Shown here piece after piece: positions 10,161 to 33,468 of a DNA stretch of 64,000 bases; position 1 is the first letter of the stretch; each line of letters begins with the position of its first letter. A program made the translations under genes and the position numbers. The notes below the pieces were generated by a model. It made no database searches. It was not told the origin of the DNA and saw only the letters and a list, made by a program, of their open reading frames with translations. Origin of the DNA: Actinomycetes bacterium (GTDB lineage Bacteria; Actinomycetota; Coriobacteriia; Coriobacteriales; UBA8131); assembly GCA_009787085.1 (NCBI GenBank), contig WRGR01000045.1, positions 64,075 through 128,074 on the forward strand, in the 5' to 3' direction.

Positions 10161-10790
10161 ATGACAGACAATTATGAAAAAAACTATGAATCCTTGAGAT
10201 CTTGGCTGGCGGATTTGGATGTAGAGGCAGTTTATCAGCGGCTGGGACTGACGGAGCCAGTTGACGGTTGCCTGCATCTTGATTTACTGCGCCGCCATTA
10301 CCGTATCGATCAGCACGCAGTGCATGACGAAGGCGGCGAGGGCAAACCCAATGTCAACTGTCAAAGTGCCTTGATCTGGTATCTGACATATGGCGGTGTC
10401 GGCGAACCGCACTACAAGTTCCAACCCTTACGAGCATTCACCGAAGGATTGGTGTTCGCTGGCAACAACCAAGACGGCAACTGGCAAGCCAGTGCGACTG
10501 AACGGGCTTTTGCCAAAAACGAGGAAAGCATTGTCCAAGCCATGGGCATACTCGGAGCAGAGCCAATCGAAGCCGGTAGTGGCTTTGACTATGCTTGGCG
10601 GCTGCTGGTGTTGCCGAAGATGCCCATAGAGATTCGGTTTTGCCGCTCCGATGAGGAGTTCCCCTGCTCGATCAAGATTTACCCGGATGAGACGGCGATG
10701 AACTATCTGCCCTTTGAGGCATTGGCAGTTTTTATCGGCTGTATTTATGGTGAGATCACCCACATCGGCCGAACTTTGAACGGCGGCTGA
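10161..10790 (+). CDS. DUF3786-like protein (paralogue 1 of 3)
   Basis: MTDNYEKNYESL... The C-terminal block LPKMPIEIRFCRSDEEFPCSIKIYPDETAMNYLPFEALAV is shared with ORFs 19058-19753 and 19819-20442. The ORF-track start at 10005 adds a non-homologous Arg/Pro-rich leader, so the ATG at 10161 is preferred. Confidence 0.7.
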   Translation: MTDNYEKNYESLRSWLADLDVEAVYQRLGLTEPVDGCLHLDLLRRHYRIDQHAVHDEGGEGKPNVNCQSALIWYLTYGGVGEPHYKFQPLRAFTEGLVFAGNNQDGNWQASATERAFAKNEESIVQAMGILGAEPIEAGSGFDYAWRLLVLPKMPIEIRFCRSDEEFPCSIKIYPDETAMNYLPFEALAVFIGCIYGEITHIGRTLNGG

Positions 10791-10875
10791 AGGCCAATTA
10801 GCAGAGCCACTCCTCCGCCCCGTCTTCGCCCTATCCCTCGCCTATCCCCTCGTACCGTCTGCTATATCACTAATC

Positions 10876-10911
10876 GATAGGCTACGCCACCTGTCGGTGG
10901 CGTAGCCTATC
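10876..10911. terminator. Strong hairpin between the convergent DUF3786 gene and the ech operon
   Basis: GATAGGCTACGCCACC-tgtc-GGTGGCGTAGCCTATC, a perfect 16 bp stem. There is no clear U-tail. Confidence 0.6.
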
Positions 10912-10975
10912 GGGTACCACAGTACGGTTATGCTACCGTCCTCTAACGCACTCAGTGGCCGGAGGCACAGGACAG

Positions 10976-11350
10976 CTACTCTGCCGCAGCCACTGCCTTC
11001 TCATCATCCCCACCGGTCTTGACAAGTGTCTTGTATTCCTTGGTCGTGCTCGGCGCGGTATATTGCGCCAGCATGGTCAGGCAGTCCTTGGGGCAAGCCC
11101 GCACACAGGTGTAGCACTGAATGCAAGCAAAGGGGTCGATCTCCCAAGTCTTGCCCGGCTTATCAACATTGATAGCCAAACTCGGGCATTTCTTAGCGCA
11201 GATACTGCAAAGGCTACAAGCCTCAATATCGTTGACAATGCTGCCCTTGGTCATCGCCGTATAAGTCGGCGCAACCACTGGGTACATCTTGGTGGCGGGC
11301 TTCTTGAAAAGATTCCCGAAGGTCACACCACCCAAAACAAAGCTTCCCAT
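10976..11350 (-). CDS. echF: Energy-converting hydrogenase 2x[4Fe-4S] ferredoxin-like subunit
   Basis: Two CxxCxxCxxxCP motifs (CSLCSICAKKCP, CIQCYTCVRACP). It is the last gene of the six-gene operon. Confidence 0.8.
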   Translation of the reverse strand: MGSFVLGGVTFGNLFKKPATKMYPVVAPTYTAMTKGSIVNDIEACSLCSICAKKCPSLAINVDKPGKTWEIDPFACIQCYTCVRACPKDCLTMLAQYTAPSTTKEYKTLVKTGGDDEKAVAAAE

Positions 11351-11468
11351 CTAGTGGCTCCTCTCTTCTAGAGAAACGCCGGTTGATGCTGGTATGCCAA
11401 ACTCTAAGCCACGTTTGTCCATGGCGGCGTATCGCGCAAGCCGACGTAACATAATTAACCGATACTTC

Positions 11469-12557
11469 CTAACGCTCCGTGCAGCTGATGCAGGGGTCGA
11501 TAGTCAGGATGTTCAAGGGCACATCAGCAATGTCACAACCTTGCAGTATCTTGGTCATGCCACCAATGTTTTGCGCCGTAGGTGTACGGATACGGAAGCG
11601 CTCCAAGAATTTACTGCCATTGCCTTTGGCATAATAAAAACACTCACCGCGAGGCTGTTCCAAGCGGGAGGCCGAGACGCTACCGTCTTCGGGCGACCCC
11701 TTGACCTTGACCATTACCTCACCGTCAGGAATCTTGCTGACCAGCTCGACAATGATATCTATGGATTGCAAGACCTCTAGGGCACGAACTTTCGCCCGGC
11801 CATAACCGTCGCCGTCTTCACAGACTATCGGCTCAAACGCGCTCAAATAACCATAGCCGCCGAAACCGTAGCAACGGATGTCTTCCGCAACATTAGAAGC
11901 CCGGGCAAAGGGGCCGACCACGCAGTTGTCAATAGCATCCTGCTTGCTCAGATAGCCTACACCGATCAAGCGGCTCTTCACCGAGCCGTCGTTTAGGAAG
12001 GTCTTGGTCAGCTTGCTGTACTCGTTTCCCATGCCCTTCAGCACATCAACAATGCCCTTCAGTTCCTCATTCGTGATGTCATGGTAAACACCGCCGACGT
12101 TGCAGGCACTGAGGATCACCCGACCGCCCGTGGTGGCCTCAAAAATATCGAGAATGCGTTCACGTATCCGCCAGCATTGCATAAAAAGGTTCTCAAAGCC
12201 AAAGGCATCAGCCGCCAAGCCCATCCAAAGCAGGTGGCTATGAACACGGGACAGCTCATGCAGGATCACTCGCAGATACTCAGCGCGCTGGGGCACTTCA
12301 ATGCCCATCAGGATCTCAATAGTCTGCGAGTAGCCGAGGCTATGGCCGAAAGAGCAAATGCCGCAGATACGCTCAGTCACTGAGACAAAGGTGCTGTAAT
12401 CCTTTTTCTTTACCAGTTGCTCCAAGCCACGATGGACGAAGCCAATTTGCGGGATGGCTTCGACTACTGTCTCGTCCTCCACTACCAAGTCGAAGTGGAT
12501 GGGCTCTGGCAGAACTGGATGCTGAGGGCCAAAGGGGATTACTGTACGTTCAGCCAT
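11469..12557 (-). CDS. echE: Group 4 [NiFe]-hydrogenase large (catalytic) subunit
   Basis: 362 aa. N-terminal Ni-Fe ligand motif RICGICSFGH and C-terminal DPCISCTER, which is the last residue block with no cleavable extension. NuoD-like overall. The start overlaps the upstream stop (TAATG). Confidence 0.9.
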   Translation of the reverse strand: MAERTVIPFGPQHPVLPEPIHFDLVVEDETVVEAIPQIGFVHRGLEQLVKKKDYSTFVSVTERICGICSFGHSLGYSQTIEILMGIEVPQRAEYLRVILHELSRVHSHLLWMGLAADAFGFENLFMQCWRIRERILDIFEATTGGRVILSACNVGGVYHDITNEELKGIVDVLKGMGNEYSKLTKTFLNDGSVKSRLIGVGYLSKQDAIDNCVVGPFARASNVAEDIRCYGFGGYGYLSAFEPIVCEDGDGYGRAKVRALEVLQSIDIIVELVSKIPDGEVMVKVKGSPEDGSVSASRLEQPRGECFYYAKGNGSKFLERFRIRTPTAQNIGGMTKILQGCDIADVPLNILTIDPCISCTER

Positions 12558-12991
12558 TAGTTGCCCCCTTCCTGTCCGTCGGTGGGTTGGTCAGCAGATT
12601 TGCTGTCACGGTAGGTCACTGTGAAAGAATTGTCGACAAAGGGCGATTGCGGGTTCATCGGGGTTGGCACGCTGACACCATAGAACTTGCCGCCGAAGTC
12701 GATGGCAATGTCTTTAATGTTCACGCCGAACAAGTCGTGCACTTCGTTTTCAAACACCAGCGCGTTAAAGAAGATGTCACTCACAGCCGGCACCGTTGCG
12801 CCAGGCTCGGCCACCAAGCGCAACTGTTCAAACTCCTTAAAATCGGAAAACGAGTAAAGCAGCTCCACGCCACCAGGCACGGTCGAGCCAGTGAGAGCCA
12901 CAAAACGCCAGCCCTTTTGCTGGTAGTCACGCGCCTTGTCATGAATCTCGGCAATCGTGGTGTTAATAAAAACTTGGGGATCCATAGCCAT
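12557..12991 (-). CDS. echD: Hydrogenase NuoC-like subunit (EchD position)
   Basis: 144 aa with the NuoC-type motif ALVFENEVHDLFGVNI. Confidence 0.7.
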   Translation of the reverse strand: MAMDPQVFINTTIAEIHDKARDYQQKGWRFVALTGSTVPGGVELLYSFSDFKEFEQLRLVAEPGATVPAVSDIFFNALVFENEVHDLFGVNIKDIAIDFGGKFYGVSVPTPMNPQSPFVDNSFTVTYRDSKSADQPTDGQEGGN

Positions 12992-12994
12992 TGC

Positions 12995-13525
12995 TCATAC
13001 CTCCAATGCTGCTTTGACGGCTTCGTCAACCCGAACGCCATCAACGATCTTGGCAGCAGCGGTGACATCAGTGACCACCGGACGCGGAGCCAGCCGGTTC
13101 TCCTTCAAGGCGCTACGGCGCTCTTCGAGGATGCCCAAGCCGGTTACCACGGCATCGATAATCGCCTCCGGGCGAATAGCACACCCCGGAGCATAAACAT
13201 CGACCGGAATGGCATTGTCAACGCCGCCCAAAGTGTTGTAGCACTCCCGGAAGATACCGCCGGTACAGGCGCAAATTCCACAGGCAATGACCACTTTGGG
13301 GTCAGGTATCTGCTCATATATCTGTTGCAGCACTTTGATGTTCTGCTCATTGACACTGCCAGTGACCAAGAAAATATCAGCATGCTTGGGATTGCCAGTG
13401 TTGATGATGCCAAAACGCTCAACATCGTACATGGGTGTCAAACAGGCCAGTACCTCGATGTCACAGCCATTGCAGCTGGAAGCATCGTAGTGCAGCAGCC
13501 AAGGGGATTTTGCAGTTGCAGTCAC
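12995..13525 (-). CDS. echC: Hydrogenase small subunit (NuoB-like, one [4Fe-4S])
   Basis: SSCNGCDIE, ACGICACTGG and APGCAIRPE, the NuoB/EchC cysteine pattern. Confidence 0.88.
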   Translation of the reverse strand: MTATAKSPWLLHYDASSCNGCDIEVLACLTPMYDVERFGIINTGNPKHADIFLVTGSVNEQNIKVLQQIYEQIPDPKVVIACGICACTGGIFRECYNTLGGVDNAIPVDVYAPGCAIRPEAIIDAVVTGLGILEERRSALKENRLAPRPVVTDVTAAAKIVDGVRVDEAVKAALEV

Positions 13526-13534: not shown

Positions 13535-14440
13535 CTAACCCAACCAGTGCCAATTAAGTGAGACCAAGTTAACAGTCACGCAAACTAACGTAACTATCCA
13601 AGACCATCTTAACATGGCACCCCACTTAACGCGGGCAAAGTTGTTGTCAATGAATATCTCCAGAAAATACACTACCAAAAGGGCAACGATCGCGATCGGA
13701 ATGGCCAGCCAATTTCCCCAGACGAAGAAGATGCCAGTCCATCCCAAGAAAAGGATGTTCTCGTACCAGTGGGTAACCTCGACCAAAGCCAAGGTGCGAC
13801 CGCTCATCTCCGTGGAGATACCCTTGACCAGCTCTTGGTGGGCATGATGTGAATAGCTAAGGTCAAATGGGCTTTTACGGAACTTGATGGTCAGGATGAA
13901 GAGGAAGCCAACGAAGATTAAGGGCAGACAAGTGATCAGCGGACGATCCAGTGCGAACACGGCGCTGGTGTCAAAAACACCTGGGTTACTAACCCCGTTC
14001 AGAACGTCCATGCCCAAATAAAAGGCGACGCAAAGCATGATGACCATCGGCTCATAGCTCATAACCTGGGCAATCTCGCGCTCAGCGCCGATCTCCGCAT
14101 AAGGGGAGCGGGTCGAATAGGCCGCGATCACGAAGAACAGGCTGGAAAGCGTGAGCACAAAAACCACCAGCAGGAAGTTGCCGCCGGCAAAGAAGATGAC
14201 GCCGGAGATGATGGCAAAGACCAGAGACATCAGGATATAAAAGCCCTGATAGCTGTTGACTGTCCACTTCTGCTTGTTCCAGAGCTTCAAAACGTCATAG
14301 AAGGGCTGTAGCAGGGGCGGGCCGACACGGCTTTGCAAACGGGCGGTGATCTTGCGGTCGACACCGGCCAACAAGCCGCCCAACAATGGGGCAAAGATGG
14401 TAAAGCAGACTAACGAAATGATGAAAGATACTATAGTCAT
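13535..14440 (-). CDS. echB: Hydrogenase integral membrane subunit (NuoH/HycD-like)
   Basis: 301 aa polytopic membrane protein of NuoH-like size, sitting between the antiporter-like and small subunits. Confidence 0.8.
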   Translation of the reverse strand: MTIVSFIISLVCFTIFAPLLGGLLAGVDRKITARLQSRVGPPLLQPFYDVLKLWNKQKWTVNSYQGFYILMSLVFAIISGVIFFAGGNFLLVVFVLTLSSLFFVIAAYSTRSPYAEIGAEREIAQVMSYEPMVIMLCVAFYLGMDVLNGVSNPGVFDTSAVFALDRPLITCLPLIFVGFLFILTIKFRKSPFDLSYSHHAHQELVKGISTEMSGRTLALVEVTHWYENILFLGWTGIFFVWGNWLAIPIAIVALLVVYFLEIFIDNNFARVKWGAMLRWSWIVTLVCVTVNLVSLNWHWLG

Positions 14441-14451: not shown

Positions 14452-16458
14452 CTATATCTGAATGAAGTTCAGGCCGATGGAAATCGCCGCTGCCAAGCCA
14501 ATGACCAATAAGGCGATGGTCACAATATAGGATGGCAGATAAAGGGCTTTCTCCCCGAACACTTTGTCCAAATACCAGTTACGCTGGCTAGCCTTGGCAG
14601 TCTGGGAAAGCGAGTTGGTGTACTCCCGCTCCTCGGAGTTGGTGCCAACACCAGCCAAGTAAATGCCCACTTCGGCCTTGGAGCGTGGGCGGAAGAACTG
14701 GATGGCGAAGATTGCCAGCAAAAGCAAGGCGATCACGGCCATGATGATCAGGTTGTCCAAACTGATTGCAGCAGTGAGCAGCGTTGCGGGGAAGGCCGCC
14801 TTCAGATACGGAACCACCGAGAACTCCGAGATCAGCGGGAAGAACACGCACATGGCAAAGGCTAAGAAGGCCATCAGAGCCAACGAGAACCACTCCGTCT
14901 TATGCACACCCTTCTCGGCCTCATTACTGGCGTGGGAGACAGCAATGATCTTGCCCAGCCACTTCGACCAGAACATGAAGGTCGCCGCCGATCCGAAAGC
15001 CAAGATAACCAGCAATATCATGTTGCCGGTTTCGGCCAGCGAGACAATTGTCGCCCATTTGGAGATCAGCATGCCGAAGGGGGCAACGAACATGCAAAGG
15101 ATGCCTAGGGCAGTGAAACGCGAGATGTTCGGCAGACGGTCGAACAGCTCGTCCATGCTCTCGATATCGCGGCTGCCGATATGGTGCTCGGTAGTGCCGA
15201 CGCAAAGGAAGAGCAGAGACTTGGCCGCTGCGTGGAAGATCAACAAGAAGATGGCCGCCCAAACAGCCTCCGGCGTACCAACGCCGGCGCAGGCCACAAT
15301 CAGGCCAAGGTTGGCAATGGTGGAATAGGCCAGAACCCGTTTAGCGTTGGACTGCGAAATGGCCAAGCAAGAGCAGCCCAGGAAGGTCACGCCGCCGACT
15401 AAGACCACGATCCAGCCGTTGAAGTTCACAAGTCCGGTGGCAGTCGTAATACCTAGGCAAGGAGCCAGCTTGATAAGCATGAAGACACCGGCCTTGACCA
15501 TCGTCGAGGAGTGCAGCAAGGCCGAAGTCGGGGTTGGTGCCACCATGGCACCCAAAAGCCAAGTATGGAAGGGCATCTGCGCCGCCTTGGTGAAACCAGC
15601 CAGCGCTAGGAGCATCACCGGGAGCATCACCAAGACTGACGGCCCCTGGGCGATGAGTGCGCTCAACTCCAAAGTAGGCTTAGTGCCGGCTACTGCCCCG
15701 GAGGCCAAGATCACCAAAGCCACGGAGAAGGCGATACCGCCGAGCAGGTTCATGTAAATCTGCCTGAAGGAATTGCGGATAGCCTCATCAGTGCGGGTAT
15801 AGCCGATCAAGGCAAAGGAGCAAACGGTAGTGACTTCCCAACCGGTCAACAGCCAAGTCAGATCGTTGCTCAAAACAATAATGAACATCGCCGAGAGGAA
15901 GACAAACATCAGGGCAAAGAACACCGGTCGCCTGTCCTTTTTGCCATGTTCGTCCTCGTGTTTTTGGAAGTCTACCATGTAGCCGTTGGCATAGATGCAG
16001 ATGCCGCTACCGATAATGCCGATAACCAGCACCATAATCGCCGATAACCCGTCAATGTAGAGCTGATGGCTCATGCTCTCCAGAGCGTGATGCACCCAGA
16101 AGATCTCGAGGCAAACCACGACTACACCTTGCACCAAGGCCATCAACACCGCGAGGAAACGCTTATAGATAATACCCTTGGCAATTATGTAGACGCAGCA
16201 GATGATATCGATGGCCAAGGCAATATAGCCCAGCCACTCGGCATCCTTGATCAACAACGTGTCGCTGCCACCGGTTATGTAGCGCAGCCCAAAAGCCAGC
16301 GAAGCCAAAATGATCAAGGCGGCCAACACGACCACCAAGCCACCACGCACTTTTGCGTTACGAACCAAAAGCATAATCCCGGCAGCGATCACCGGAAGGA
16401 CAATTAGAACTGCTAGGTTCAGCTGTGTTATAAAGTCCATCTGTGTTACTACGTCCAT
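14452..16458 (-). CDS. echA: Hydrogenase antiporter-like membrane subunit (NuoL/HyfB-like)
   Basis: About 668 aa with many TM helices. The ATG at 16458 lies 6 nt after GAAGGAGG. The GTG at 16464 in the ORF track abuts the RBS and is less likely. Confidence 0.85.
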   Translation of the reverse strand: MDVVTQMDFITQLNLAVLIVLPVIAAGIMLLVRNAKVRGGLVVVLAALIILASLAFGLRYITGGSDTLLIKDAEWLGYIALAIDIICCVYIIAKGIIYKRFLAVLMALVQGVVVVCLEIFWVHHALESMSHQLYIDGLSAIMVLVIGIIGSGICIYANGYMVDFQKHEDEHGKKDRRPVFFALMFVFLSAMFIIVLSNDLTWLLTGWEVTTVCSFALIGYTRTDEAIRNSFRQIYMNLLGGIAFSVALVILASGAVAGTKPTLELSALIAQGPSVLVMLPVMLLALAGFTKAAQMPFHTWLLGAMVAPTPTSALLHSSTMVKAGVFMLIKLAPCLGITTATGLVNFNGWIVVLVGGVTFLGCSCLAISQSNAKRVLAYSTIANLGLIVACAGVGTPEAVWAAIFLLIFHAAAKSLLFLCVGTTEHHIGSRDIESMDELFDRLPNISRFTALGILCMFVAPFGMLISKWATIVSLAETGNMILLVILAFGSAATFMFWSKWLGKIIAVSHASNEAEKGVHKTEWFSLALMAFLAFAMCVFFPLISEFSVVPYLKAAFPATLLTAAISLDNLIIMAVIALLLLAIFAIQFFRPRSKAEVGIYLAGVGTNSEEREYTNSLSQTAKASQRNWYLDKVFGEKALYLPSYIVTIALLVIGLAAAISIGLNFIQI

Positions 16459-17087
16459 CGACACCCTCCTTCAAAGCTATTGGTGCCCACTTCCATCTGT
16501 TTAGCAGATGTTACTGACAATTTCGATTTCACAACTTCTCCTTCCAGCAAGATAGGGCGTACACGACTATCCAGTCGTCTTGGTGAAAACCGCGCAACCG
16601 CACTGCGAGTTACAACAACACGAGCCGCGGTGACCTAAGTTGGGATTGGCTCCTTCCGCAAAACCAGCTTCGCCGCATGACCTAGAAGATGTTTCCTGCC
16701 GCCCCCGACAGGGCGCCCCTGCCAGCTTCCCTATTGCTCAAAACGGCAATAGTCTTAGGCATCTCTTCTAGCTCCTCGTCCAAGACTCCCCAGCCCTGGT
16801 TCCAATCTCCAACCCGACAACAGAATGATAACGTGCTCTAAACTGTGATATTATATCGCACCTACAGCTGGGATGCAGTTCTGAGATTTACTATAAAGTT
16901 AAGATACTTTTCCTACAAAATGTATGAGAAGACAACGGCACTAGTCGGTGGCTTCCTGGGGAAGCAGCGTAAAAGATTGCGGCTCAAGGCCGCAATGACT
17001 GTACTTCGAGCATTGATCAACACTTCCCAAGCAGCACCTGTGTTAAAATCATCGGAACAAGTGCCTGTCAAACAGCGAGGAGTCCAA

Positions 17088-27200: not shown

Positions 27201-27749
27201 GGCAAACTGCTTGCCGTTGGAAGTGCCGCCCATGAAGACGTAGAGGTTGCGCTGCTGAAGCTCTTTGGCAATGCTCACGGCGGTGGCGTTATCGGCTACC
27301 GAGCCGCAGATGGCAGCAAAGCCAGGGGCTGTGCCGTCCACGAACTCAATGCCGCGCTCGCGCATGATAACATCGGTCGCCGCACCCAGCCAAATGCCGT
27401 CGACCGGCTTGGGGCCGACGAGGTACTTACAGGCCTCGAGTATCTCGCAAGCAAACAGAGCAGCCACGCCGGCATCCAAAGTGTTGCCTAGGTATGGCAG
27501 CCAAACATCGTCGACCGGGCGGGCGGGCAGCAAGTCCCGGGCACCCTTCAAGACTTCTTTGGCATCCTTCAGGGTCTCCACCTTCTTGCCGGTGAAACCA
27601 TAGATTACCGGCAGATAATACGCAGTGTCCGGAAACCCGACGGCGCCGTCCTCGCCAAATTCCTTGATAGCCTCGTCAAGCTTAGCCTCCGCTTTGACGA
27701 CCCATTCCACTGCTCCGTCAATCGCGGATGTTGCTATGATTTTAGACAT
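24282..27749 (-). CDS. Acetyl-CoA synthase (AcsB) fused in frame to the CFeSP small subunit (AcsD)
   Basis: 1155 aa. Residues ~1-735 are AcsB-like (GFPDTAYYLPVIYGFTG; A-cluster cysteines CLLCQSFAPNHVCVITPERLGLCGA and SCGCFE). A ~100 aa Ala/Thr/Glu-rich linker is encoded at about 25225-25555. The C-terminal ~320 aa are AcsD-like (IWEVKLGATKEEGGTRAKTYTVGGHNCMPFQLFEG, YGADMISVRLD, IMDPLSSSIGYGVEYTYSVMERIRL). There is no stop or frameshift between the parts. Confidence 0.9.
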   Translation of the reverse strand: MSKIIATSAIDGAVEWVVKAEAKLDEAIKEFGEDGAVGFPDTAYYLPVIYGFTGKKVETLKDAKEVLKGARDLLPARPVDDVWLPYLGNTLDAGVAALFACEILEACKYLVGPKPVDGIWLGAATDVIMRERGIEFVDGTAPGFAAICGSVADNATAVSIAKELQQRNLYVFMGGTSNGKQFAEQLEEEGVQLGWETRLVPFGSDVSALIYALGFASRAAMSFGGVKPGDFEAHLKYNKDRIFAFVLALGEVTPDKYAAAAGAINYGFPTIADTNIPEILPTGVCTYEHVVANVPLETIVEKALDVRGCKIKIVDVPVPVAYGPAFEGERIRKEDTQVEFGGNKTSAFEFVTMVEPEDIEDGEIELIGPDIDEVEPGTALPLAIWVEAAGRKMQVDFEPILERQVHHMVNGAEGIWHMGQRDIVWTRVSKDGYNKGLRMRHYGEILHAKLLADYPAIVDKVKVTLVTDAEEVEKRQAVARKVYDERNRRLEAMTDDSVDIFYSCLLCQSFAPNHVCVITPERLGLCGAYNWLDGKAAHEIDPTGPNQPIAKGTCLDESKGVWEGINEFVYTSSHKAIEEFCAYSIMDRPMTSCGCFEAIVAYVPEVNGVMVVNREFLGDTPCGMTFSSLAGNVGGGMQTPGFVGIGKVFLTSRKFCSAEGGFRRLAWMPKELKESIAEDMKKRLDEQGVADMFDKIADETIATTAEELRAFMEKVNHPALEMDDMTEYMQKEDDTPAVHKTEKAAEVETAAAAAGTTTELSGADMEALREQMATEVRSSVTEDVVASIIEVLSQKFLGKSVSLGEAGGTAAAGASVSVSAQPKAADLIAEVTSFPVNKEVCENEIWEVKLGATKEEGGTRAKTYTVGGHNCMPFQLFEGKMPNRPLLAMEVFDEVSDKYPEILREVYGDLVNDPAAMAAACVEKYGADMISVRLDATHPEKGNRSPQQSVDLVGEVLKAVDVPLIVTGTSHFDSNNEVFKAIAQSFEGENLLLNWVEQDNYRTIAGAAMAYGHSLVSQAPIDVNISKQMAILLTNMGLPQNRIIMDPLSSSIGYGVEYTYSVMERIRLTGLGGDQMLCAPMIVTAGFESAKCKEFKAPEADYPLWGDVKKRSAMWELTTAMTLLQAGGDILVMYHPEAAKVAKNAIFEMLDQQNA

Positions 27750-27814: not shown

Positions 27815-29800
27815 TTAATGAGCCGAGCGGCGATCAGCCATGTCGAACAGCTTGCGCTCAACCTTCTTGTTGATACCCAGAGCATCCCTAGCCGCGTTCA
27901 GTATCTCGATGATCCGCTCAACAGCCTCCATGGGATCCTCAATCAGATGGAACGATGCACCGAATAGTTCTTTGGTGTCCTCATACAAGAACTTGCTCAC
28001 TTTTTCGGAACCGGACACATAAAACTCGTTGCCCAAGATGACGTCAACACCCGATGCCACACAATAGCAACCGATGGCAATAGCCTTTTCGCTCATCCAT
28101 TCCGGAGCCACGCCAACTGCCGGCAGACCGGCGATATCGTCACCCAAGCCGCCTTCTTTAACAATCTCAGTGGCAGCTTCCAAGATACGGGAGTTGTCCA
28201 CGCAGCTGCCCATATGCAGGATCGGCGGAATGCCGACGGCCTCGCAGACCTCAGCCAAGCCGGCACCGGCATGCTCACGGGCATACTCCGGTGTCATGTA
28301 GCCGGCCTTACCGGCAGCGATAGCCGCACACCCGGTCTCGATAACCAAGACGTTCCGCTTGATCAGCTCTTCGGCCAAAATACCGCTGTAGCTGTCGGCA
28401 CGCTGCTTGGGATTGTTGCAGCCGACGATGCCGACGATGCCCAAGATCCGGTTTTGGATGATGGCGTCGTTCAGCGGCCGGAAGGAGGCACGATACTTAC
28501 CGCCCAGCATGTACTTGATAGCGTCCACCGAGAAACCGGCGATCAGCGGCTCATGCTCGGAGGGTATCTTGACCTTCTCTGGGTCGCGATTCTTGAAGTT
28601 ATCGATCGCCCGCTTGATGATGTTCTTGGCCGACTCGATGGGTGCCTCTTCATCGAAGCCCATGTGGGTGGCACCGGCCATCTTGGCGATCTCCTGGGTG
28701 GAGACGATCTCGGTGTGATAATGTGCAGCCACTTCCGGAAGTGCTGGCATGCAGCACTGGACATCGATGACCATCATCTCCACAGCACCGGTGATGACAG
28801 CCAGTTCCTGCTGCAGGGAGTTGCCGGCGATGACCACGCCCTGACGCATCAAGACCTCGTTGGCCGTGCAGCAAACGCCAGCGATGGTAATGCCCTCGGC
28901 ACCGGCAGCTTTGGCATATTCCGCGATCTCCGGGTCTTTGACGGCGAAGGTCAGCATCTCAGAGAGGGTCGGCTCATGACCGTGAATCAGAATGTTCACG
29001 GTTTCGTTCTTCAGAACGCCCAAGTTGGCCGCTGACTTCAGCGGCGCAGGGGTGCCGAAGAGAATGTCGGAAGTCATGGAAGCAATGCGGGCACCGCCCC
29101 AACCGTCGGCCAGCGAGGTACGGAAGGCATGCATCAAAAGGTTTTTGTAGTCGTGGTCCACGCCCATGGTGGTACGATGCATGGCCTCGACACACATCCG
29201 GTCAACGCCCTTGGGGGCAACGCCGGTCTGCTGCCAAATGCCTTGGCGTTTCTGAGGAGCCAGCGCCAACGTGGCCAAGTAGTCTTCCTGAGACATGAAG
29301 TCATGCAGGAAGATGTCGGTCAGCTCCAAGGCGATCTGAGAGGCCGTCTTGTCCTCGGTCTCAATGCCGTAGAGCTTGGCCACCCGAACCAGCGCCTTCT
29401 CGTCTTTGATGGTGTAGCCATGACCCTCGCCCTTGGCGATCTCCCGAAGCTTCAAAACCAGATGACGGCCATGGTCGGAGTGCGCAGCGGTACCGCCCAC
29501 TACCTCACGCAGGAAGTTGCGTGCGGCAATGGTGTCAGCGGTGGCACCGCAGATGCCCTTCGGAGCCTTAGGGGTGATGCGGCACGGACCCATGTGGCAA
29601 ATGCGGCAACAAACACCGGATTTGCCAAAAGTACACTGGTTCTTCTGGGTTTCCATGCGGTCGAAACAAGTTTCAACACAATCGTCCAAAGCCTTGTTCA
29701 ACATCGCCAAGGACGCATTGTCCACGACTTTGTTTGCGTTCTCAACAATCTTGTCTTTCAGTTCTTGGTCTTTGTCTTTCTTTTCTTTATCTGCTGCCAT
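27815..29800 (-). CDS. acsA: Anaerobic carbon-monoxide dehydrogenase catalytic subunit
   Basis: CRICHMGPCRI, HGHEP, GVCCTANE and GSCVDNSR, the cluster B/C/D ligand motifs of CooS/AcsA. Confidence 0.93.
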   Translation of the reverse strand: MAADKEKKDKDQELKDKIVENANKVVDNASLAMLNKALDDCVETCFDRMETQKNQCTFGKSGVCCRICHMGPCRITPKAPKGICGATADTIAARNFLREVVGGTAAHSDHGRHLVLKLREIAKGEGHGYTIKDEKALVRVAKLYGIETEDKTASQIALELTDIFLHDFMSQEDYLATLALAPQKRQGIWQQTGVAPKGVDRMCVEAMHRTTMGVDHDYKNLLMHAFRTSLADGWGGARIASMTSDILFGTPAPLKSAANLGVLKNETVNILIHGHEPTLSEMLTFAVKDPEIAEYAKAAGAEGITIAGVCCTANEVLMRQGVVIAGNSLQQELAVITGAVEMMVIDVQCCMPALPEVAAHYHTEIVSTQEIAKMAGATHMGFDEEAPIESAKNIIKRAIDNFKNRDPEKVKIPSEHEPLIAGFSVDAIKYMLGGKYRASFRPLNDAIIQNRILGIVGIVGCNNPKQRADSYSGILAEELIKRNVLVIETGCAAIAAGKAGYMTPEYAREHAGAGLAEVCEAVGIPPILHMGSCVDNSRILEAATEIVKEGGLGDDIAGLPAVGVAPEWMSEKAIAIGCYCVASGVDVILGNEFYVSGSEKVSKFLYEDTKELFGASFHLIEDPMEAVERIIEILNAARDALGINKKVERKLFDMADRRSAH

Positions 29801-29916: not shown

Positions 29917-30675
29917 TTAGAAATTTTTGACAATCTCGTCGACTTTCTTAATGACGGCATTGTCTGAAGGAAGCTCCAAGAAAACTCGTGAATCCTCGGC
30001 GAACTTCGCCACTTCCTCATCGTCGGGCAAAAAGTAAATCTCGTCTGCCCCGGTCGCAACACGGACCTCTTCAGCAGCTTTCGGCACCTGGTCGCTACGC
30101 AAGCGGTTGATCACCAAGACCAACTTCTTGTAATTCAGCTTCATCTCATTGGCCAAATCATGCAAACGACCGAGCGTCCTGATACCCGCATTGGATGAGT
30201 CAGAAACCAGCATCAGCACGTCAACATCGGCCACAATGCGGCGAGAGAGGTTCTCTAGCCCGGCCTCATTGTCCAAAACAACATAGGGGTACTCGCCAGA
30301 CAGCTTCTGGATCACGGTTTTCAGCACACCGTTGGCGTAACAATAGCAGCCTGCTCCTTCTGGACGCCCCATCGATATCATGTCGAATCCCTTGGACTCC
30401 ACGAGGCTCTCGTTGATCTTCATTTGCAGCACCTCGGTATTAGAGATGCCGCTGTCTTTGTCCTGAGCGTTGTCCCGGGCTTCTTCACGGGCTGCGCCCA
30501 CGGATTTGGTAACCGTGACCCCCAGCGCCGTGTCTAGACAGCTATTCGGATCGGCATCAATAGCCAACACCGGCTTCTTGCCGGCCTCGATCAGCTGCTT
30601 GACGATCATTGACGAGATGGTTGTCTTGCCAACACCACCCTTTCCGGATATCGCCACAAAAAACGTCATGCGCAA
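29917..30675 (-). CDS. cooC: CooC/AcsF-family Ni-insertion ATPase (copy 2)
   Basis: P-loop SGKGGVGKTT and CxC metal motif GAGCYCYANG. The start may be the Met at 30669. Confidence 0.85.
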   Translation of the reverse strand: MRMTFFVAISGKGGVGKTTISSMIVKQLIEAGKKPVLAIDADPNSCLDTALGVTVTKSVGAAREEARDNAQDKDSGISNTEVLQMKINESLVESKGFDMISMGRPEGAGCYCYANGVLKTVIQKLSGEYPYVVLDNEAGLENLSRRIVADVDVLMLVSDSSNAGIRTLGRLHDLANEMKLNYKKLVLVINRLRSDQVPKAAEEVRVATGADEIYFLPDDEEVAKFAEDSRVFLELPSDNAVIKKVDEIVKNF

Positions 30676-31448
30676 ACCTCCAGTTTATCGAGTATTTCCT
30701 GATAGATAGCCACCAGCTCGGGGCTTGCGGTATCCAGAACCGATACGCCGTCACGATCCGCGGCCCGGATCGTGTCAGAATAGGGAATGATTCCCAGAGG
30801 CTCTGAGGGAAGCTGTTCGCGAACGTAGTCCTCTTCCCCGGCATTAGCTACCTTGTTAGCAACAAACTCCACATGCTGAAGGCCGATCTCTCTGGCCATC
30901 CGGTCTATGGTAATAGCAGCATCGATCGAACGCTGGCCGGGCTCGACGACACAAACCACCACATCCACGCCCTTGACAGTAGAACGCCCCAAATGCTCAA
31001 TGCCTGCTTCCATGTCCATAATCAAAGTCTGGTTTTGGAACAAGACCAAGTCGGTGGTCAAGGATTGTGCGAAGACGTTCTCCGGACACGCGCACCCTGA
31101 CCCACCGGCTTGGATCGCACCAAGCACTAGGAGCGAGATGTTGCCTCTTTTGTACGCGAACTTGTCAGCTACGTCATGCACCTCGGGATTGAGCTTGAAA
31201 ACCTGCCCATACCGGTTCACTTTCGCGCCAGTGCGCTCTTCGATCAGGGCGATCTGTTTGGAGATCGGCACGATCTTGCTTTGCTCGGCATGCGAGATGC
31301 CCAAGGCCTGAGCCAAGTTAGCATCCGGATCAGAGTCAAACGCCAGCACCTCGCCGCCCTCTTTGGAGAGCAGCAAGGCAAGCGCAGCAGCAAGGGTGGA
31401 TTTGCCTACTCCACCCTTACCGGTAACGGCGATTTTCTTTCCCGCCAT
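30666..31448 (-). CDS. cooC: CooC/AcsF-family Ni-insertion ATPase (copy 1)
   Basis: P-loop TGKGGVGKST and CxC motif GGSGCACPEN. Confidence 0.85.
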   Translation of the reverse strand: MAGKKIAVTGKGGVGKSTLAAALALLLSKEGGEVLAFDSDPDANLAQALGISHAEQSKIVPISKQIALIEERTGAKVNRYGQVFKLNPEVHDVADKFAYKRGNISLLVLGAIQAGGSGCACPENVFAQSLTTDLVLFQNQTLIMDMEAGIEHLGRSTVKGVDVVVCVVEPGQRSIDAAITIDRMAREIGLQHVEFVANKVANAGEEDYVREQLPSEPLGIIPYSDTIRAADRDGVSVLDTASPELVAIYQEILDKLEVCA

Positions 31449-31450
31449 TC

Positions 31451-32518
31451 TTAGAAACCGTACTTTTCCCTCATACGGGCACTGAGGGCCTGAAGCAGCT
31501 CGAATACGCGCTCGGCATCGTCGACCGCAATCGAGCCGGTACCGCAGGCCGGTGTGAGGAATGCCTGGTCGAGAATCAGGGATTTCTCGATACCAGCAGT
31601 GCTGGCCAGATGATCCATGACATACTCCAAGCGCTCCTCCAGCGAGTCCACCGTCTCATCACGGATCAACGATGAAGTCGGGCAGATGCCCCAAGCCAAG
31701 GTGCCGCCGCGCTCCAAATGGCGCTTGACATGCTCCGGATACATGGCGATGGTTTCGCCGAACTCAAAGGCATCGAAGTTGACGATATCCACACCAGCAT
31801 CGATCAGGATCGACCACTCGGTGTTGCCACAGCAGTGGATGCCGGCCAAACCACCGTCTTGGTGCACGGCATCGATGGTCTCGATCAGAATATTCACAAC
31901 ATCCTCACGCTGTACGGACACGTAAGTCGACGATCCGAAGGCCGAGAGGATCGGCTCATCGATAAAGCAGACAATGGTATCGGCGTAGGAAGCGAACTTC
32001 TGGATCTGCCAGCGGCATTTCATGGCGATGGCCTTGGTGATCATGTCGCGGAATTCCTCGTTGTAATAAATCGCCCGCTTGTCTTGGTCGACCAGCGTCA
32101 AGGCAATTGAGCAGGGCCCGGTGACCTGGACCTTCAGATAGGGCAGTTTGCCGCCCTTGGCCTTCAGCTGGCGCTCCATCTCGTAGATGCCATGAGAGTA
32201 CTCCTCGCTGATAGCCATAGCCGAACAGTCGCCATTGCCCTCATCAGGGTCCATGGCCATGATATAGGACTCGTAGAAGTTCGCAAACTCCTCCGAATAG
32301 TCACCGTCAGTCTGGAAGAACATCCGGCCCTTCTCGGTGTCCAGCACGGTGCAGGGCATACCCTCGCTGTATTGGATTTCCATCTGTTCTTTCAGCCCGA
32401 AATAACCAAGCTGTGGCCAGATCGGCACATCCAGCCGCTTCAAGGACAGCTCTACTGCGTACTTGGGGTCGTCAAAAGGCATCGAGCCAATTGCTGTTGT
32501 AATACATTGCGGTTTCAT
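31451..32518 (-). CDS. Core-MetE-like (Meth_synt_2 family) Zn methyltransferase
   Basis: 355 aa. TTAIGSMP, VTGPCS, FIDEPIL, the Zn-ligand pattern IHCCGN...VNFDAFE and LTPACGTGS parallel MetE catalytic-domain motifs (TTTIGSFP, GPVT, IDEPA, HMCY...IE, PDCGL). Confidence 0.7.
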   Translation of the reverse strand: MKPQCITTAIGSMPFDDPKYAVELSLKRLDVPIWPQLGYFGLKEQMEIQYSEGMPCTVLDTEKGRMFFQTDGDYSEEFANFYESYIMAMDPDEGNGDCSAMAISEEYSHGIYEMERQLKAKGGKLPYLKVQVTGPCSIALTLVDQDKRAIYYNEEFRDMITKAIAMKCRWQIQKFASYADTIVCFIDEPILSAFGSSTYVSVQREDVVNILIETIDAVHQDGGLAGIHCCGNTEWSILIDAGVDIVNFDAFEFGETIAMYPEHVKRHLERGGTLAWGICPTSSLIRDETVDSLEERLEYVMDHLASTAGIEKSLILDQAFLTPACGTGSIAVDDAERVFELLQALSARMREKYGF

Positions 32519-32571
32519 CAGGTCTCCTTCTCCTCTTCAGAGTGTTTCGTTTTCTTCGAAATCGATGCCGC

Positions 32572-33468
32572 TCAGAGAGCCTTGACAGCCTCTTTGATCG
32601 CCTTGATGTGGGCAGGAGTGGTGCCGCAGCAGCCGCCGATGATGTTGGCACCGGCCTTAACTAGATCGGGCACCAGCTTGGCCATGTCTTCCGGAGTGTC
32701 CGGGAAGGTGTCCTTGCCGTCTACCTGGATCGGCAGGCCAGCGTTGGCGTGCAGCAGGATGAAGGCATTCGGCTCAGCCTTGTGGATCCGCTCCACGATG
32801 GTCAGCATCCGGTCGACACCGTTGCCGCAGTTGGTGCCAACGATATCTGCCCCGGCCTCTAAGGCAGCCTTGGCAGCATCTTCTGGCGTGGTGCCCATCA
32901 TGGTACGATAATCGCCGTTCACCGTCTGCTCAAAGGTAAAGGTGCAGATCACCTCGAGGTTGGTGTTCTCTTTGGTGGCTTTGATGGCCAGTGCAGCCTC
33001 ATCGGTGGCAAACATGGTCTCGATGCAGACTGCATCCGCGCCGCCTTTCTCCAAGGCTATGACCTGTTCTTTATAGGCGTCGTACATTTCCTGCTCGGAC
33101 ACTTCCTCAGTAACCAGCAGCTTGCCGGTGGGGCCGGCAGAGGCGATTACCCAGTTGTCCTCACCAGCAGCGGCACGTGATGCCTTGGCCGCCGCCTCAT
33201 TGATCTCAGCAACTCGACCGGCCAAGCCGTAATGCTCCAGCTTATAGACAGTGCCACCGAAGCTGTCCGCCTCGACCATATCCGCACCTGCATCAATGTA
33301 GCTTTTTGCAATCTTAGTTACCTTGTCGCCGTGATCAACGGCCCAAAGCTCCGGACTCTCGCCTGGCTCCAAGCCCATCTCGATTAGAAAGGTTCCCCAG
33401 GCCCCGTCGGATACAAGAATCCTTCCCGCTTTAAGTGCATCAACGATTTTTCCACGAGTCATGCGCAC
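32572..33468 (-). CDS. Homocysteine S-methyltransferase-domain protein (stand-alone MetH Hcy-module-like)
   Basis: 298 aa with ILVSDGAWGTFL, GTNCGNG and GGCCGTTPAHI, the Zn-Cys3 pattern of the S-methyl_trans domain. It is the first gene of the acs operon. Confidence 0.8.
   Translation of the reverse strand: MRMTRGKIVDALKAGRILVSDGAWGTFLIEMGLEPGESPELWAVDHGDKVTKIAKSYIDAGADMVEADSFGGTVYKLEHYGLAGRVAEINEAAAKASRAAAGEDNWVIASAGPTGKLLVTEEVSEQEMYDAYKEQVIALEKGGADAVCIETMFATDEAALAIKATKENTNLEVICTFTFEQTVNGDYRTMMGTTPEDAAKAALEAGADIVGTNCGNGVDRMLTIVERIHKAEPNAFILLHANAGLPIQVDGKDTFPDTPEDMAKLVPDLVKAGANIIGGCCGTTPAHIKAIKEAVKAL

What the first reader, a model, noticed from the sequence alone, without database searches (positions are those of the whole stretch)
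10161..33468. Compact Ech hydrogenase, Ni-chaperone and CODH/ACS super-locus in an actinobacterial backbone
Seen: within 23 kb lie a complete six-subunit energy-converting [NiFe]-hydrogenase, a His-rich protein with CooT, two CooC ATPases, CODH, ACS, CFeSP and its ATP-dependent activator, a ferredoxin and a regulator. No folate-branch genes (fhs, folD, metF) are in the window. Established: Ech-type hydrogenases couple ferredoxin to H+/H2 and ion translocation, and they serve as the coupling site in some acetogens and in acetate-cleaving Methanosarcina. CODH with a group 4 hydrogenase supports CO-dependent H2 formation in carboxydotrophs. Inference: the locus could run CO or acetyl-CoA oxidation to H2, or H2-driven CO2 reduction, using ferredoxin as the only carrier.
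Basis: partly seen in the sequence, partly recalled or inferred. Interest (0 to 1): 0.75.

Follow-up and report, generated by a model that had tools for sequence, protein, structure and literature searches.

The report
Ech hydrogenase beside AcsE-less CODH/ACS cassette
A gut-type actinobacterium (class Coriobacteriia) carries its own membrane hydrogenase next to a horizontally acquired CO-dehydrogenase/acetyl-CoA-synthase gene cassette that has no folate methyltransferase and instead encodes two homocysteine (methionine-forming) methyltransferases, so the locus is real but is an unusual variant of the classical acetogenesis gene cluster.

Summary
Window 10161-33468 holds echABCDEF with intact NiFe ligands, a His-rich protein, CooT, two CooC-type ATPases, CODH, ACS, CFeSP, RACo, a small ferredoxin and a PucR regulator. 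The window has no fhs, folD, metF or hyp genes.

- ACS is fused to the CFeSP small subunit (AcsB::AcsD, 1155 aa).
- There is no AcsE.
- The operon opens with a MetH-type homocysteine-binding protein and a MesB-like core methionine synthase that no Pfam model recognises.
- There are three DUF3786 paralogues.

The block from the homocysteine methyltransferase to RACo is a cassette. It is conserved at 60-80% identity in at least 80 loci from more than ten phyla, always in unrelated flanks and never with AcsE. Ech is native to Coriobacteriia. It lies next to the cassette only here and in one termite-gut relative.

The most likely mechanism is a ferredoxin circuit: ACS/CFeSP exchanges the acetyl-CoA methyl group with homocysteine/methionine, CODH interconverts CO and CO2, and Ech couples ferredoxin to H2 and an ion gradient. 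The direction of flux, and whether an AcsE lies elsewhere in the genome, are unresolved.

I rate this a new variant of a known kind, of moderate interest.

The parts
10161..10790 (+). DUF3786 paralogue c, convergent with echF
   Evidence: PF12654 at 8.7e-30. Called as a 209-aa gene on the 402-kb contig.
10976..11350 (-). EchF, 2x[4Fe-4S] NuoI-like subunit
   Evidence: Fer4 family hits. Two CxxCxxCxxxCP motifs are visible in the sequence.
11469..12557 (-). EchE, [NiFe] large subunit
   Evidence: Complex1_49kDa and NiFeSe_Hases. RICGIC and DPCISC motifs, with no C-terminal extension. Best solved relatives are MbhL 6cfw_L (1.8e-68) and HycE 7z0s_E. Homologues are labelled 'ech hydrogenase subunit E' by JGI.
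12557..12991 (-). EchD, small NuoC-like subunit
   Evidence: Complex1_30kDa at 6.4e-07.
12995..13525 (-). EchC, NuoB-like small subunit
   Evidence: Oxidored_q6 at 6.2e-30. Cys motifs CNGC, GICAC and GC are visible in the sequence.
13535..14440 (-). EchB, NuoH-like membrane subunit
   Evidence: NADHdh at 3.1e-39.
14452..16464 (-). EchA, antiporter-like membrane subunit (670 aa)
   Evidence: Proton_antipo_M and Proton_antipo_N.
17088..17669 (+). His-rich protein, a putative Ni-storage or delivery protein analogous to CooJ
   Evidence: 53 His in 193 aa. The His-rich part is a 96-nt tandem repeat, 2.3 copies. No Pfam hit. The start codon is inferred.
17671..17874 (+). CooT nickel chaperone
   Evidence: PF10133 at 1.2e-14.
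17884..19008 (-). PucR-type HTH regulator, last gene of the cassette strand
   Evidence: HTH_30 at 8.6e-15.
19058..19753 (-). DUF3786 paralogue a
   Evidence: PF12654 at 1.2e-39. AF2 model pLDDT 79.7 with no PDB fold match.
19819..20442 (-). DUF3786 paralogue b
   Evidence: PF12654 at 3.7e-34.
20459..20650 (-). 63-aa 2x[4Fe-4S] ferredoxin ORF
   Evidence: Two CxxCxxC-type motifs. Weak ferredoxin-domain hits in NCBIfam. The public gene caller did not call it and it was not found in related loci.
20647..20934 (-). 95-aa Cys-rich protein of unknown family
   Evidence: Recurs next to the cassette in 11 of 80 loci. Only a sub-threshold zinc-ribbon hit.
20990..22909 (-). RACo, ATP-dependent reductive activator of CFeSP
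   Evidence: Fer2, RACo_linker, Raco_middle and RACo_C_ter.
22940..24265 (-). AcsC, CFeSP large subunit
   Evidence: FeS (PF04060) and CdhD. Called as a 441-aa gene.
24282..27749 (-). AcsB::AcsD fusion: acetyl-CoA synthase plus CFeSP small subunit, 1155 aa, with a roughly 110-aa Ala/Glu/Thr-rich linker
   Evidence: CODH_A_N, CdhC and ACS_CODH_B_C over residues 21-725, and CdhD over 848-1084. NF040764 at 1058 bits over 10-725 and the delta-subunit model NF003376 at 368 bits over 837-1150. PDB: ACS 9fr0_A for residues 9-725 and Moorella AcsD 4djd_D for 845-1148. A-cluster Cys motifs are present.
27815..29800 (-). Ni-CODH catalytic subunit (AcsA/CooS type)
   Evidence: Prismane at 2.3e-166. TIGR01702 at 643 bits against a cutoff of 478.
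29917..30675 (-). Second CooC-type ATPase, divergent and possibly AcsF-like
   Evidence: CbiA and AAA_31. 72 bits to CooC1 3kje_A. CYC motif.
30666..31448 (-). CooC nickel-insertion ATPase
   Evidence: 167 bits to C. hydrogenoformans CooC1 3kje_A. CAC motif.
31451..32518 (-). 355-aa MesB-like 'core' methionine synthase, annotated as hypothetical in public records
   Evidence: No Pfam hit. Weak hit to archaeal methionine synthase PRK00957. H228, D249 and C325 are invariant and C230 is at least 90% conserved, and the IGSxP and DEP motifs are conserved. The ligand spacing is identical to D. mccartyi MesB H215/C217/D236/C312. AF2 pLDDT 97.8; fold matches are MetE, UROD and MtaA. Present in nearly all cassette loci.
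32572..33468 (-). Stand-alone MetH-type homocysteine-binding methyltransferase, first gene of the operon
   Evidence: PF02574 at 3.4e-67. Matches the T. maritima MetH N-terminal domain 1q7m_A at 9.9e-41. The Zn triad C214/C280/C281 is invariant in 28 cassette homologues.

Best explanation
The locus joins two modules.

**Module 1** is echABCDEF, a six-subunit group-4 [NiFe] hydrogenase that is native to Coriobacteriia.

**Module 2** is a horizontally mobile CODH/ACS cassette: Hcy-methyltransferase, MesB-like protein, CooC, CooC, CODH, ACS::AcsD, AcsC and RACo, followed by a Cys-rich protein, a ferredoxin, two DUF3786 genes and PucR. The cassette has no AcsE. Its only encoded methyl-transfer enzymes act on homocysteine.

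**Proposed mechanism:**
- ACS and CFeSP interconvert acetyl-CoA with CO plus CH3-Co(III)-CFeSP.
- The MesB-like enzyme and the MetH-type Hcy domain pass the methyl group to homocysteine, giving methionine. This is the D. mccartyi-type folate-independent route.
- CODH oxidises the CO to CO2 and reduces ferredoxin.
- Ech reoxidises ferredoxin to H2 while translocating ions.
- RACo, the two CooC proteins, CooT and the His-rich protein keep the cobalt and nickel centres active.

**Shown:** the gene content, the intact active-site motifs, the conservation of the cassette across phyla, the absence of AcsE from the locus, and the coriobacterial ancestry of Ech.

**Inferred:** that CFeSP is the methyl donor of the two methyltransferases, the net direction of flux, and the functional coupling to Ech.
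For: - **Anatomy and motifs:**
- **Cassette order is conserved.** It is kept at 60-80% aa identity in 80 loci labelled Coriobacteriia, Bacillota, Treponema, Lentisphaerae, Bacteroidota, Verrucomicrobiota, KSB1, Planctomycetota, Synergistaceae and others. 451 loci in all encode a relative of the fusion protein.
- **Flanks differ from locus to locus and never hold AcsE or folate-branch genes**. A cassette that spreads in this way should carry its own methyl port.
- **The 355-aa protein looks like MesB.** It has MetE-type Hcy and Zn motifs with the same ligand spacing as the biochemically characterised MesB and a MetE/MT2 fold.
- **A 40%-identical homologue is corrinoid-linked.** Its gene overlaps a gene for a B12-binding plus Met_synt_B12 protein, which links the family to corrinoid-dependent methionine synthesis.
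- **Literature precedent.** Price et al. predict CFeSP as the MesB methyl donor and report mesB-acsC-acsD operons (PMC7857596).
- **The PF02574 protein keeps its Zn triad**.
- **Ech adjacency recurs.** In the sister lineage (L002/L130) Ech lies next to the cassette again, there directly downstream on the same strand.
- **In 14 cultured acetogens acsE is always clustered with acsBCD** (PMC5039349). Its absence from all 80 loci is therefore systematic.
Against: - The rest of the genome could not be inventoried, so an unlinked acsE, metF, fhs or folD is not excluded.
- The AcsD domain is closest to Moorella AcsD, which does work with AcsE.
- No SAM or cobalamin riboswitch or other methionine-type leader precedes the cassette in the window or in 15 other loci, including Bacillota loci.
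- A 12-gene Ni/Co/Fe-S machine is an expensive way to make methionine.
- Two homocysteine methyltransferases in one operon are not explained.
- Membership of the 355-aa protein in MesB proper was not tested against the reference sequence.
- Ech adjacency is seen in only two lineages. Related Coriobacteriia keep Ech next to uvrA with no cassette nearby.
Confidence: 0.4

Rival explanations
1. This is an ordinary Ech-type Wood-Ljungdahl acetogen. AcsE and the folate branch lie elsewhere in the genome. The cassette is the carbonyl branch running in the reductive direction in an H2-rich gut. Ech is the chemiosmotic coupling site, as in Thermoanaerobacter kivui. The two Hcy methyltransferases are only an anabolic side tap on CH3-CFeSP.
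For: - CODH, ACS, CFeSP and RACo are all canonical bacterial types with intact sites.
- The relatives come from termite guts, where reductive acetogenesis dominates.
- The Wood-Ljungdahl pathway is already reported in Actinobacteria, including Coriobacteriia.
- There is no methionine-type riboswitch.
Against: - acsE is absent from all 80 cassette neighbourhoods, whereas in cultured acetogens it is always clustered with acsBCD.
- Many carriers are labelled as lineages not known, to my knowledge, as acetogens (Victivallis, Bacteroidales, Lentisphaerae).
- The window has no folate, fdh, hydABC or rnf genes.
Confidence: 0.35
2. This is a carboxydotrophic hydrogenogenesis unit. CODH oxidises external CO and Ech evolves H2, as with the CODH/Coo hydrogenase of Carboxydothermus or Rhodospirillum.
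For: CODH, a ferredoxin, Ni chaperones and a group-4 hydrogenase lie within 23 kb.
Against: - The CODH is embedded in an ACS/CFeSP operon, not next to the hydrogenase.
- There is no CooF or CooA.
- The gene order is echABCDEF, not cooMKLXUH, and EchA is 670 aa.
- The cassette usually occurs without any hydrogenase.
Confidence: 0.08
3. The cassette runs as a methyl-thioether-fed acetyl-CoA synthase. The two Zn methyltransferases work in reverse and load CFeSP from methionine or another S-methyl compound, while Ech supplies reduced ferredoxin from H2 for CO2 reduction.
For: - Both methyltransferases have thiol-activating Zn sites.
- From my own knowledge, Methanosarcina MtsA and MtpA show that thioether-to-Co(I) transfer exists.
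- From my own knowledge, Ech provides reduced ferredoxin for ACDS in Methanosarcina barkeri.
Against: - By established MetH chemistry, demethylating methionine onto Co(I) is strongly unfavourable.
- The Hcy-binding motifs (IGSxP, DEP) point to homocysteine as the acceptor.
- No transporter or lyase for S-methyl compounds is in the locus.
Confidence: 0.07

Closest known systems
Dehalococcoides mccartyi incomplete Wood-Ljungdahl pathway with MesB (core-MetE, cbdbA481/DET0516)
   Same: - ACS plus CFeSP without AcsE.
- A roughly 345-aa core methionine synthase with His-x-Cys...Asp...Cys zinc ligands at identical spacing.
- The methyl group of acetyl-CoA is proposed to go to homocysteine through CFeSP.
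   Different: Here CODH, two CooC proteins and an adjacent Ech could dispose of the CO as CO2 plus H2.
- Here mesB-like is the second gene of the acs operon, a MetH-type Hcy domain is added, and AcsB is fused to AcsD.
- Sequence membership in MesB was not tested.
Bacterial acs gene clusters of cultured acetogens (Moorella, Acetobacterium, Clostridium, T. kivui, T. primitia)
   Same: CODH, ACS, CFeSP, CooC/AcsF and RACo/AcsV-type activator, with intact metal sites. From my own knowledge, Ech is the coupling site in T. kivui and Moorella.
   Different: - acsE is always in the cluster in those organisms (PMC5039349). It is absent here and in all 80 related loci.
- AcsB and AcsD are separate polypeptides there.
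- Hcy methyltransferases are not listed among the cluster genes.
Methanosarcina barkeri Ech hydrogenase (echABCDEF) with ACDS
   Same: Identical six-gene order and subunit types. From my own knowledge, Ech links H2 to ferredoxin for the CO2/CO step of acetyl-CoA synthesis or cleavage.
   Different: That system is archaeal, uses Cdh-type ACDS and H4SPT, and its genes are not adjacent. Here the CODH/ACS is of the bacterial type.
CODH-Coo hydrogenase (group 4c) of Rhodospirillum rubrum and Carboxydothermus hydrogenoformans
   Same: Ni-CODH, CooC, CooT/CooJ-like Ni proteins and a six-subunit group-4 hydrogenase in one neighbourhood.
   Different: There is no CooF or CooA, the hydrogenase has a different gene order and a short EchA, and the CODH belongs to an ACS operon.
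Wood-Ljungdahl loci described in Actinobacteria (Merino 2020; Jiao 2021, not readable here)
   Same: An actinobacterial host with CODH/ACS. From my own recollection of the Jiao abstract, group-4-related hydrogenases are reported in those MAGs.
   Different: The Hakuba genomes carry hybrid cdhABC-acsCDE clusters that include acsE. The present cassette is a different, cross-phylum type.

Membership tests
Group 4 (Ech-type, 4e) energy-converting [NiFe] hydrogenase | Large subunit with N-terminal RxCGxCxxxH and C-terminal DPCxxC NiFe-binding motifs | tested here: met
   RICGICSFGH and DPCISCTER in EchE.
Group 4 (Ech-type, 4e) energy-converting [NiFe] hydrogenase | Six subunits in the order echABCDEF: antiporter-like, NuoH-like, NuoB-like, small NuoC-like, NuoD-like, NuoI-like | tested here: met
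   Pfam assignments and gene order. The same order is found in 13 related loci.
Group 4 (Ech-type, 4e) energy-converting [NiFe] hydrogenase | Large subunit closer to group-4 hydrogenases than to complex I or to groups 1-3 | tested here: met
   Full-length hits to MbhL at 1.8e-68 and HycE at 1.1e-62. Complex I subunits align only over the first ~280-290 residues at 1e-48 or weaker (one MBS-type NuoD homologue, 6u8y_L, aligns near full length at 4.5e-36), and group 3 scores 1e-17 or weaker.
Group 4 (Ech-type, 4e) energy-converting [NiFe] hydrogenase | Phylogenetic placement in subgroup 4e (HydDB) | not testable with these tools
   No HydDB or reference tree was on hand. Only JGI's label 'ech hydrogenase subunit E' on homologues is available.
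Bacterial CODH/ACS with CFeSP (acs cluster) | Ni-CODH catalytic subunit and ACS with A-cluster ligands | tested here: met
   TIGR01702 at 643 bits against a cutoff of 478. NF040764 at 1058 bits against a cutoff of 800. The CxxC...C...C and CGC motifs are present.
Bacterial CODH/ACS with CFeSP (acs cluster) | CFeSP made of separate large (AcsC) and small (AcsD) subunits | tested here: not met
   AcsD is the C-terminal domain of the ACS polypeptide. The same fusion is seen in 80 loci.
Bacterial CODH/ACS with CFeSP (acs cluster) | Methyl-H4folate:CFeSP methyltransferase AcsE (Pterin_bind) encoded in the cluster | tested here: not met
   No PF00809 hit on any ORF of the window. Among 80 related loci, none of the ten largest recurrent neighbour-gene clusters read by eye and none of 29 neighbour ORFs scanned with Pfam is AcsE. 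Presence elsewhere in the genome was not tested.
MesB family of core methionine synthases (Price et al. 2021) | Zinc ligands His-x-Cys...Asp...Cys and homocysteine-binding residues conserved | tested here: met
   H228, D249 and C325 are invariant and C230 is at least 90% conserved in 137 family members. IGSxP and DEP are nearly invariant. The spacing equals MesB H215/C217/D236/C312.
MesB family of core methionine synthases (Price et al. 2021) | At least 173 bits (phmmer) to DET0516 | not testable with these tools
   The reference sequence could not be obtained. The family profile finds no PDB sequence, the window protein has no Meth_synt_2 hit, and only 10 of 137 family members hit Meth_synt_2 weakly. 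The family may therefore be a sister group.
MesB family of core methionine synthases (Price et al. 2021) | Occurs only in genomes with AcsC and AcsD | tested here: inconclusive
   Close homologues (over 65% identity) lie in the cassette. Homologues at 35-40% identity stand alone or sit with a MetH C-terminal half, and their genomes were not inventoried.
MetH homocysteine-binding domain (PF02574) | S-methyl_trans barrel with the Cys...Cys-Cys zinc triad | tested here: met
   227.7 bits against a cutoff of 22. Hit to 1q7m_A residues 6-285. C214, C280 and C281 are invariant.
MetH homocysteine-binding domain (PF02574) | Covalently linked pterin-binding, B12-binding and reactivation domains (full MetH) | tested here: not met
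   The 298-aa protein is a single domain.
CO-induced Coo hydrogenase system (group 4c) | cooMKLXUH order with a long CooM, plus CooF and CooA next to cooS | tested here: not met
   The gene order and sizes differ. No CooF-type or CRP-type genes are in the locus.

The most novel reading that the evidence does not exclude
The cassette is a self-contained, folate-independent C1 module. CODH/ACS uses the homocysteine/methionine pair, served by a MesB-like enzyme and a MetH-type Hcy domain, as its methyl port instead of tetrahydrofolate. The cassette has spread by horizontal transfer into many lineages not known as acetogens. In termite-gut Coriobacteriia it has been docked onto the native Ech, so that acetyl-CoA + homocysteine gives methionine + CO2 + H2 using ferredoxin only. 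If so, many MAGs scored as having an 'incomplete Wood-Ljungdahl pathway' would really carry a different pathway.
Probability: 0.3. Interest if true: 0.75.

Novelty: new variant of a known kind. Interest (0 to 1): 0.5.

Why it matters
CODH/ACS genes in metagenomes are routinely read as markers of acetogenesis or autotrophy. This cassette is found in hundreds of species-level genomes. It lacks the enzyme that links the pathway to folate and carries two homocysteine methyltransferases instead.

If the cassette works without AcsE, those organisms exchange carbon between acetyl-CoA and methionine rather than fixing CO2 by the textbook route, and pathway-completeness scoring misclassifies them. Surveys of termite-gut MAGs found no complete acsABCDE set outside one family.

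The 355-aa family has about 1800 clusters at 50% identity. It is annotated as 'hypothetical' and no Pfam model covers it, so naming it would improve annotation widely.

The Ech adjacency gives a compact, testable ferredoxin circuit.

Tried and rejected
- **DUF3786 function.** The AF2 model (pLDDT 79.7) has no significant PDB fold match, there is no PDB sequence hit, and the one paper that mentions the family is unrelated. Function remains unknown.
- **Intrinsic pterin methyltransferase in the AcsD domain.** I considered that the fused AcsD domain might be archaeal CdhD-like and so replace AcsE. This is rejected as unsupported. Its best solved relative is Moorella AcsD (4djd_D, 307 bits), and the model that matches it above its cutoff is of bacterial length.
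- **Riboswitch test for methionine or B12 regulation.** No Rfam hit other than tRNAs in the window and 15 cassette loci.
- **Promoter and terminator scans.** Counts are close to shuffled expectation and uninformative.
- **GC-content island test.** Ech is 53.5%, the cassette 54.8% and the flanks 55-58%, so there is no clear signal.
- **Sequence searches for the 355-aa protein.** The single sequence and the family profile both find nothing in the PDB. Only fold comparison worked.
- **Organism names for distant homologues.** Most have none.
- **Extending the window to the right.** The GrpE product is not on record.
- **Papers not held.** Jiao 2021 and Adam 2018 could not be read.
- **Assembly chimera.** I considered and rejected this. 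The cassette-to-CooT/His-rich stretch is identical in an independent Logan assembly, and the Ech junction recurs in a second lineage.

Full report
**1. Check of the observation**

ORF listing and Pfam/NCBIfam scans confirm a compact, almost gap-free set of genes on the minus strand.
- echABCDEF occupies 16464 down to 10976.
- A 15.6-kb operon runs from 33468 down to 17884. Intergenic gaps range from -10 to 116 nt.
- Between the two, on the plus strand, lie a His-rich ORF and cooT.

EchE carries both NiFe-binding motifs and ends at DPCISCTER with no C-terminal extension. Its best solved relatives are the group-4 enzymes MbhL and HycE over the full length.

CODH and ACS score above the NCBIfam equivalog cutoffs, and the A-cluster cysteines are present. 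Both CooC-type ATPases keep the CxC motif.

No fhs, folD, metF, fdh or hyp gene is present in the 64 kb, or in 10 kb further left on the 402-kb parent contig.

**2.

- ACS is fused to the CFeSP small subunit in one 1155-aa protein with a low-complexity linker of roughly 110 aa.
- There is no AcsE (Pterin_bind) gene.
- The first two genes of the operon are a stand-alone MetH-type homocysteine-binding domain (PF02574, 227.7 bits) and a 355-aa protein with no Pfam hit.
- Three DUF3786 paralogues are present, along with a 95-aa Cys-rich ORF.

**3. The 355-aa protein**

- It is labelled 'hypothetical' in public records (MCL1880295.1).
- It belongs to a very large family: 1822 representatives at 50% identity with E<=1e-3.
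- Across 137 members down to 29% identity, H228, D249 and C325 are invariant and C230 is at least 90% conserved. An N-terminal IGSxP motif and a DEP motif, the MetE homocysteine-binding signatures, are nearly invariant.
- The ligand spacing (+2, +19, +76) equals that of the biochemically characterised D. mccartyi core methionine synthase MesB (H215, C217, D236, C312; 343 aa; PMC7005905).
- An AlphaFold model (pLDDT 97.8) matches the MetE catalytic barrel, UROD and the methylcobamide:CoM methyltransferase fold at 12-15% identity.
- Only 10 of 137 relatives weakly hit Meth_synt_2, and the family profile finds no PDB sequence.
- One 40%-identical homologue overlaps a gene for a B12-binding plus Met_synt_B12 protein, the C-terminal half of MetH. 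Other homologues stand alone.

I read the protein as a MesB-type, corrinoid-protein-dependent methionine synthase. Formal membership, defined as a bit score against DET0516, could not be tested.

**4. The cassette**

A genome-collection scan with the fusion protein found 451 loci, and the 80 best were fetched. A tblastn synteny table shows this order kept at 60-80% aa identity: Hcy-MT, MesB-like, CooC, CooC, CODH, AcsB::AcsD, AcsC, RACo, often followed by the Cys-rich ORF and a DUF3786 gene.

The MAGs carrying it are labelled Coriobacteriia, Bacillota, Treponema, Lentisphaerae/Victivallales, Bacteroidota, Verrucomicrobiota, Kiritimatiellia, Planctomycetota, KSB1, Synergistaceae, Leptospirales and others.

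The MesB-like gene is present in nearly every locus that has room upstream. The PF02574 gene is present in about three quarters of them.

Outside the block nothing recurs. The largest neighbour clusters reach 8 of 80 loci and are mostly antisense artefacts. Pfam scans of 29 neighbouring ORFs in seven loci gave unrelated housekeeping, regulatory or mobile-element genes.

In contrast, a comparison of 14 cultured acetogens reports that acsB, C, D, E and F are always clustered (PMC5039349). The absence of AcsE is therefore a property of this cassette type and not an accident of this genome.

**5. Ech**

The closest EchE homologues (66-80% identity) that carry an organism label are nearly all from Coriobacteriia, Coriobacteriales, Eggerthellaceae or Raoultibacter (two are labelled only 'Actinomycetota bacterium' and 'bacterium'), and JGI labels them 'ech hydrogenase subunit E'.

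Thirteen longer metagenome loci keep echABCDEF but have no cassette gene within reach. In L090 and L131, Ech lies beside uvrA among housekeeping genes.

The cassette and Ech are adjacent only in two places:
- in the window;
- in the termite-gut MAG Lab288P4bin32, where L002 and L130 are 99.75% identical to each other and about 74% identical in nucleotides to the window. There echA follows the DUF3786 genes directly on the same strand.

So Ech is native to the class, the cassette was acquired, and the juxtaposition is lineage-specific. In the window, the PucR gene and the divergent His-rich/cooT pair sit between the two modules.

**6. Mechanism**

Shown:
- all catalytic and maturation parts for acetyl-CoA synthesis or cleavage are present (ACS, CFeSP, RACo);
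- the parts for CO/CO2 interconversion are present (CODH, CooC, CooT, the His-rich protein);
- a small ferredoxin and a ferredoxin-dependent, ion-translocating hydrogenase are present;
- the only methyl-transfer enzymes encoded are two Zn-dependent homocysteine methyltransferases.

Inferred: CH3-Co(III)-CFeSP is their methyl donor, following the prediction of Price et al. for MesB. The locus would then work like the D. mccartyi route, in which the acetyl-CoA methyl goes to methionine, but with CODH and Ech to turn the CO into CO2 and H2.

One argument favours a cassette-borne methyl port. A block that has moved between many phyla needs to function on arrival, and recipient genomes would not be expected to supply AcsE.

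Evidence against this reading:
- no SAM or cobalamin riboswitch lies upstream in 16 loci;
- the AcsD domain is most similar to Moorella AcsD, which partners with AcsE;
- the genome could not be inventoried.

I give this model 0.40 and ordinary Ech-type acetogenesis with an unlinked AcsE 0.35. The smaller shares go to CO-driven hydrogenogenesis and to a reversed route fed by S-methyl compounds.

**7. Comparison and novelty**

Each component is a known kind, and so is the idea of coupling Ech to CODH/ACS. Examples are Methanosarcina, T. kivui and actinobacterial Wood-Ljungdahl MAGs. MesB and its link to CFeSP are published.

I did not find described, in the library I could search, the cassette architecture itself: the AcsB::AcsD fusion, the systematic lack of AcsE, a MesB-like gene plus a MetH Hcy-domain gene at the head of the operon, cross-phylum spread, and docking to Ech. 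This negative result is limited by missing subscription papers.

Verdict: the feature is real, it is a new variant of a known kind, and I score its interest at about 0.5.

Noticed in passing
window 17088-17669 (+): The His-rich protein is 27% His. Its metal-binding part is encoded by a 96-nt tandem repeat of 2.3 copies at 94% match (17172-17392). It has a C-terminal helical domain of about 70 aa with no family hit. An independent short-read assembly breaks inside this gene.
   Followed up: partly
window 10161-10790 (+), 19058-19753 (-), 19819-20442 (-): Three DUF3786 paralogues share only 22-25% identity with each other. DUF3786 genes recur beside the cassette in about 23 of 80 loci from other phyla. 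The predicted fold has no PDB match, so this is an uncharacterised CODH/ACS-associated family.
   Followed up: partly
window 20647-20934 (-): A 95-aa Cys-rich protein (CPG...CPECG...CTSCG...CINWC...C) recurs in 11 cassette loci, sometimes as the N-terminus of a longer protein. It has no family assignment.
   Followed up: no
L084 8001-10261: A 40%-identical homologue of the 355-aa protein overlaps by 7 nt a gene for a B12-binding plus Met_synt_B12 protein (the MetH C-terminal half). This may be a split methionine synthase in which a MetE-core-like barrel replaces the MetH N-terminal half.
   Followed up: no
L130 11879-12475: In the sister lineage, a 198-aa B12-binding protein (PF02607+PF02310) is encoded just downstream of echF on the opposite strand, followed by glutamate dehydrogenase and a DDE transposase.
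   Followed up: no
window 9597-9673 and 9811-9886 (+): tRNA-His(GTG) and tRNA-Lys(CTT) lie about 300 nt from the left edge of the locus. HPPK (folate biosynthesis) and a TP_methylase gene (8152-9511) lie just beyond them.
   Followed up: no
window 802-3450 (-): A ribonucleotide reductase large subunit with a TSCPD domain. This is probably the B12-dependent class II type, which would make it a further cobamide-dependent enzyme in this genome.
   Followed up: no
window 43018-45603 and 58901-61738 (-): Two paralogous Clp/Hsp100 AAA+ chaperone genes lie in the right flank, one ClpC-like with a UVR motif and one ClpB-like, next to dnaJ and grpE. These are ordinary actinobacterial housekeeping genes.
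   Followed up: no
window 20459-20650 (-): The 63-aa 2x[4Fe-4S] ferredoxin ORF overlaps the upstream gene by 4 nt. The public gene caller did not call it, and it has no counterpart in the 80 related loci. Whether it is expressed is uncertain.
   Followed up: partly
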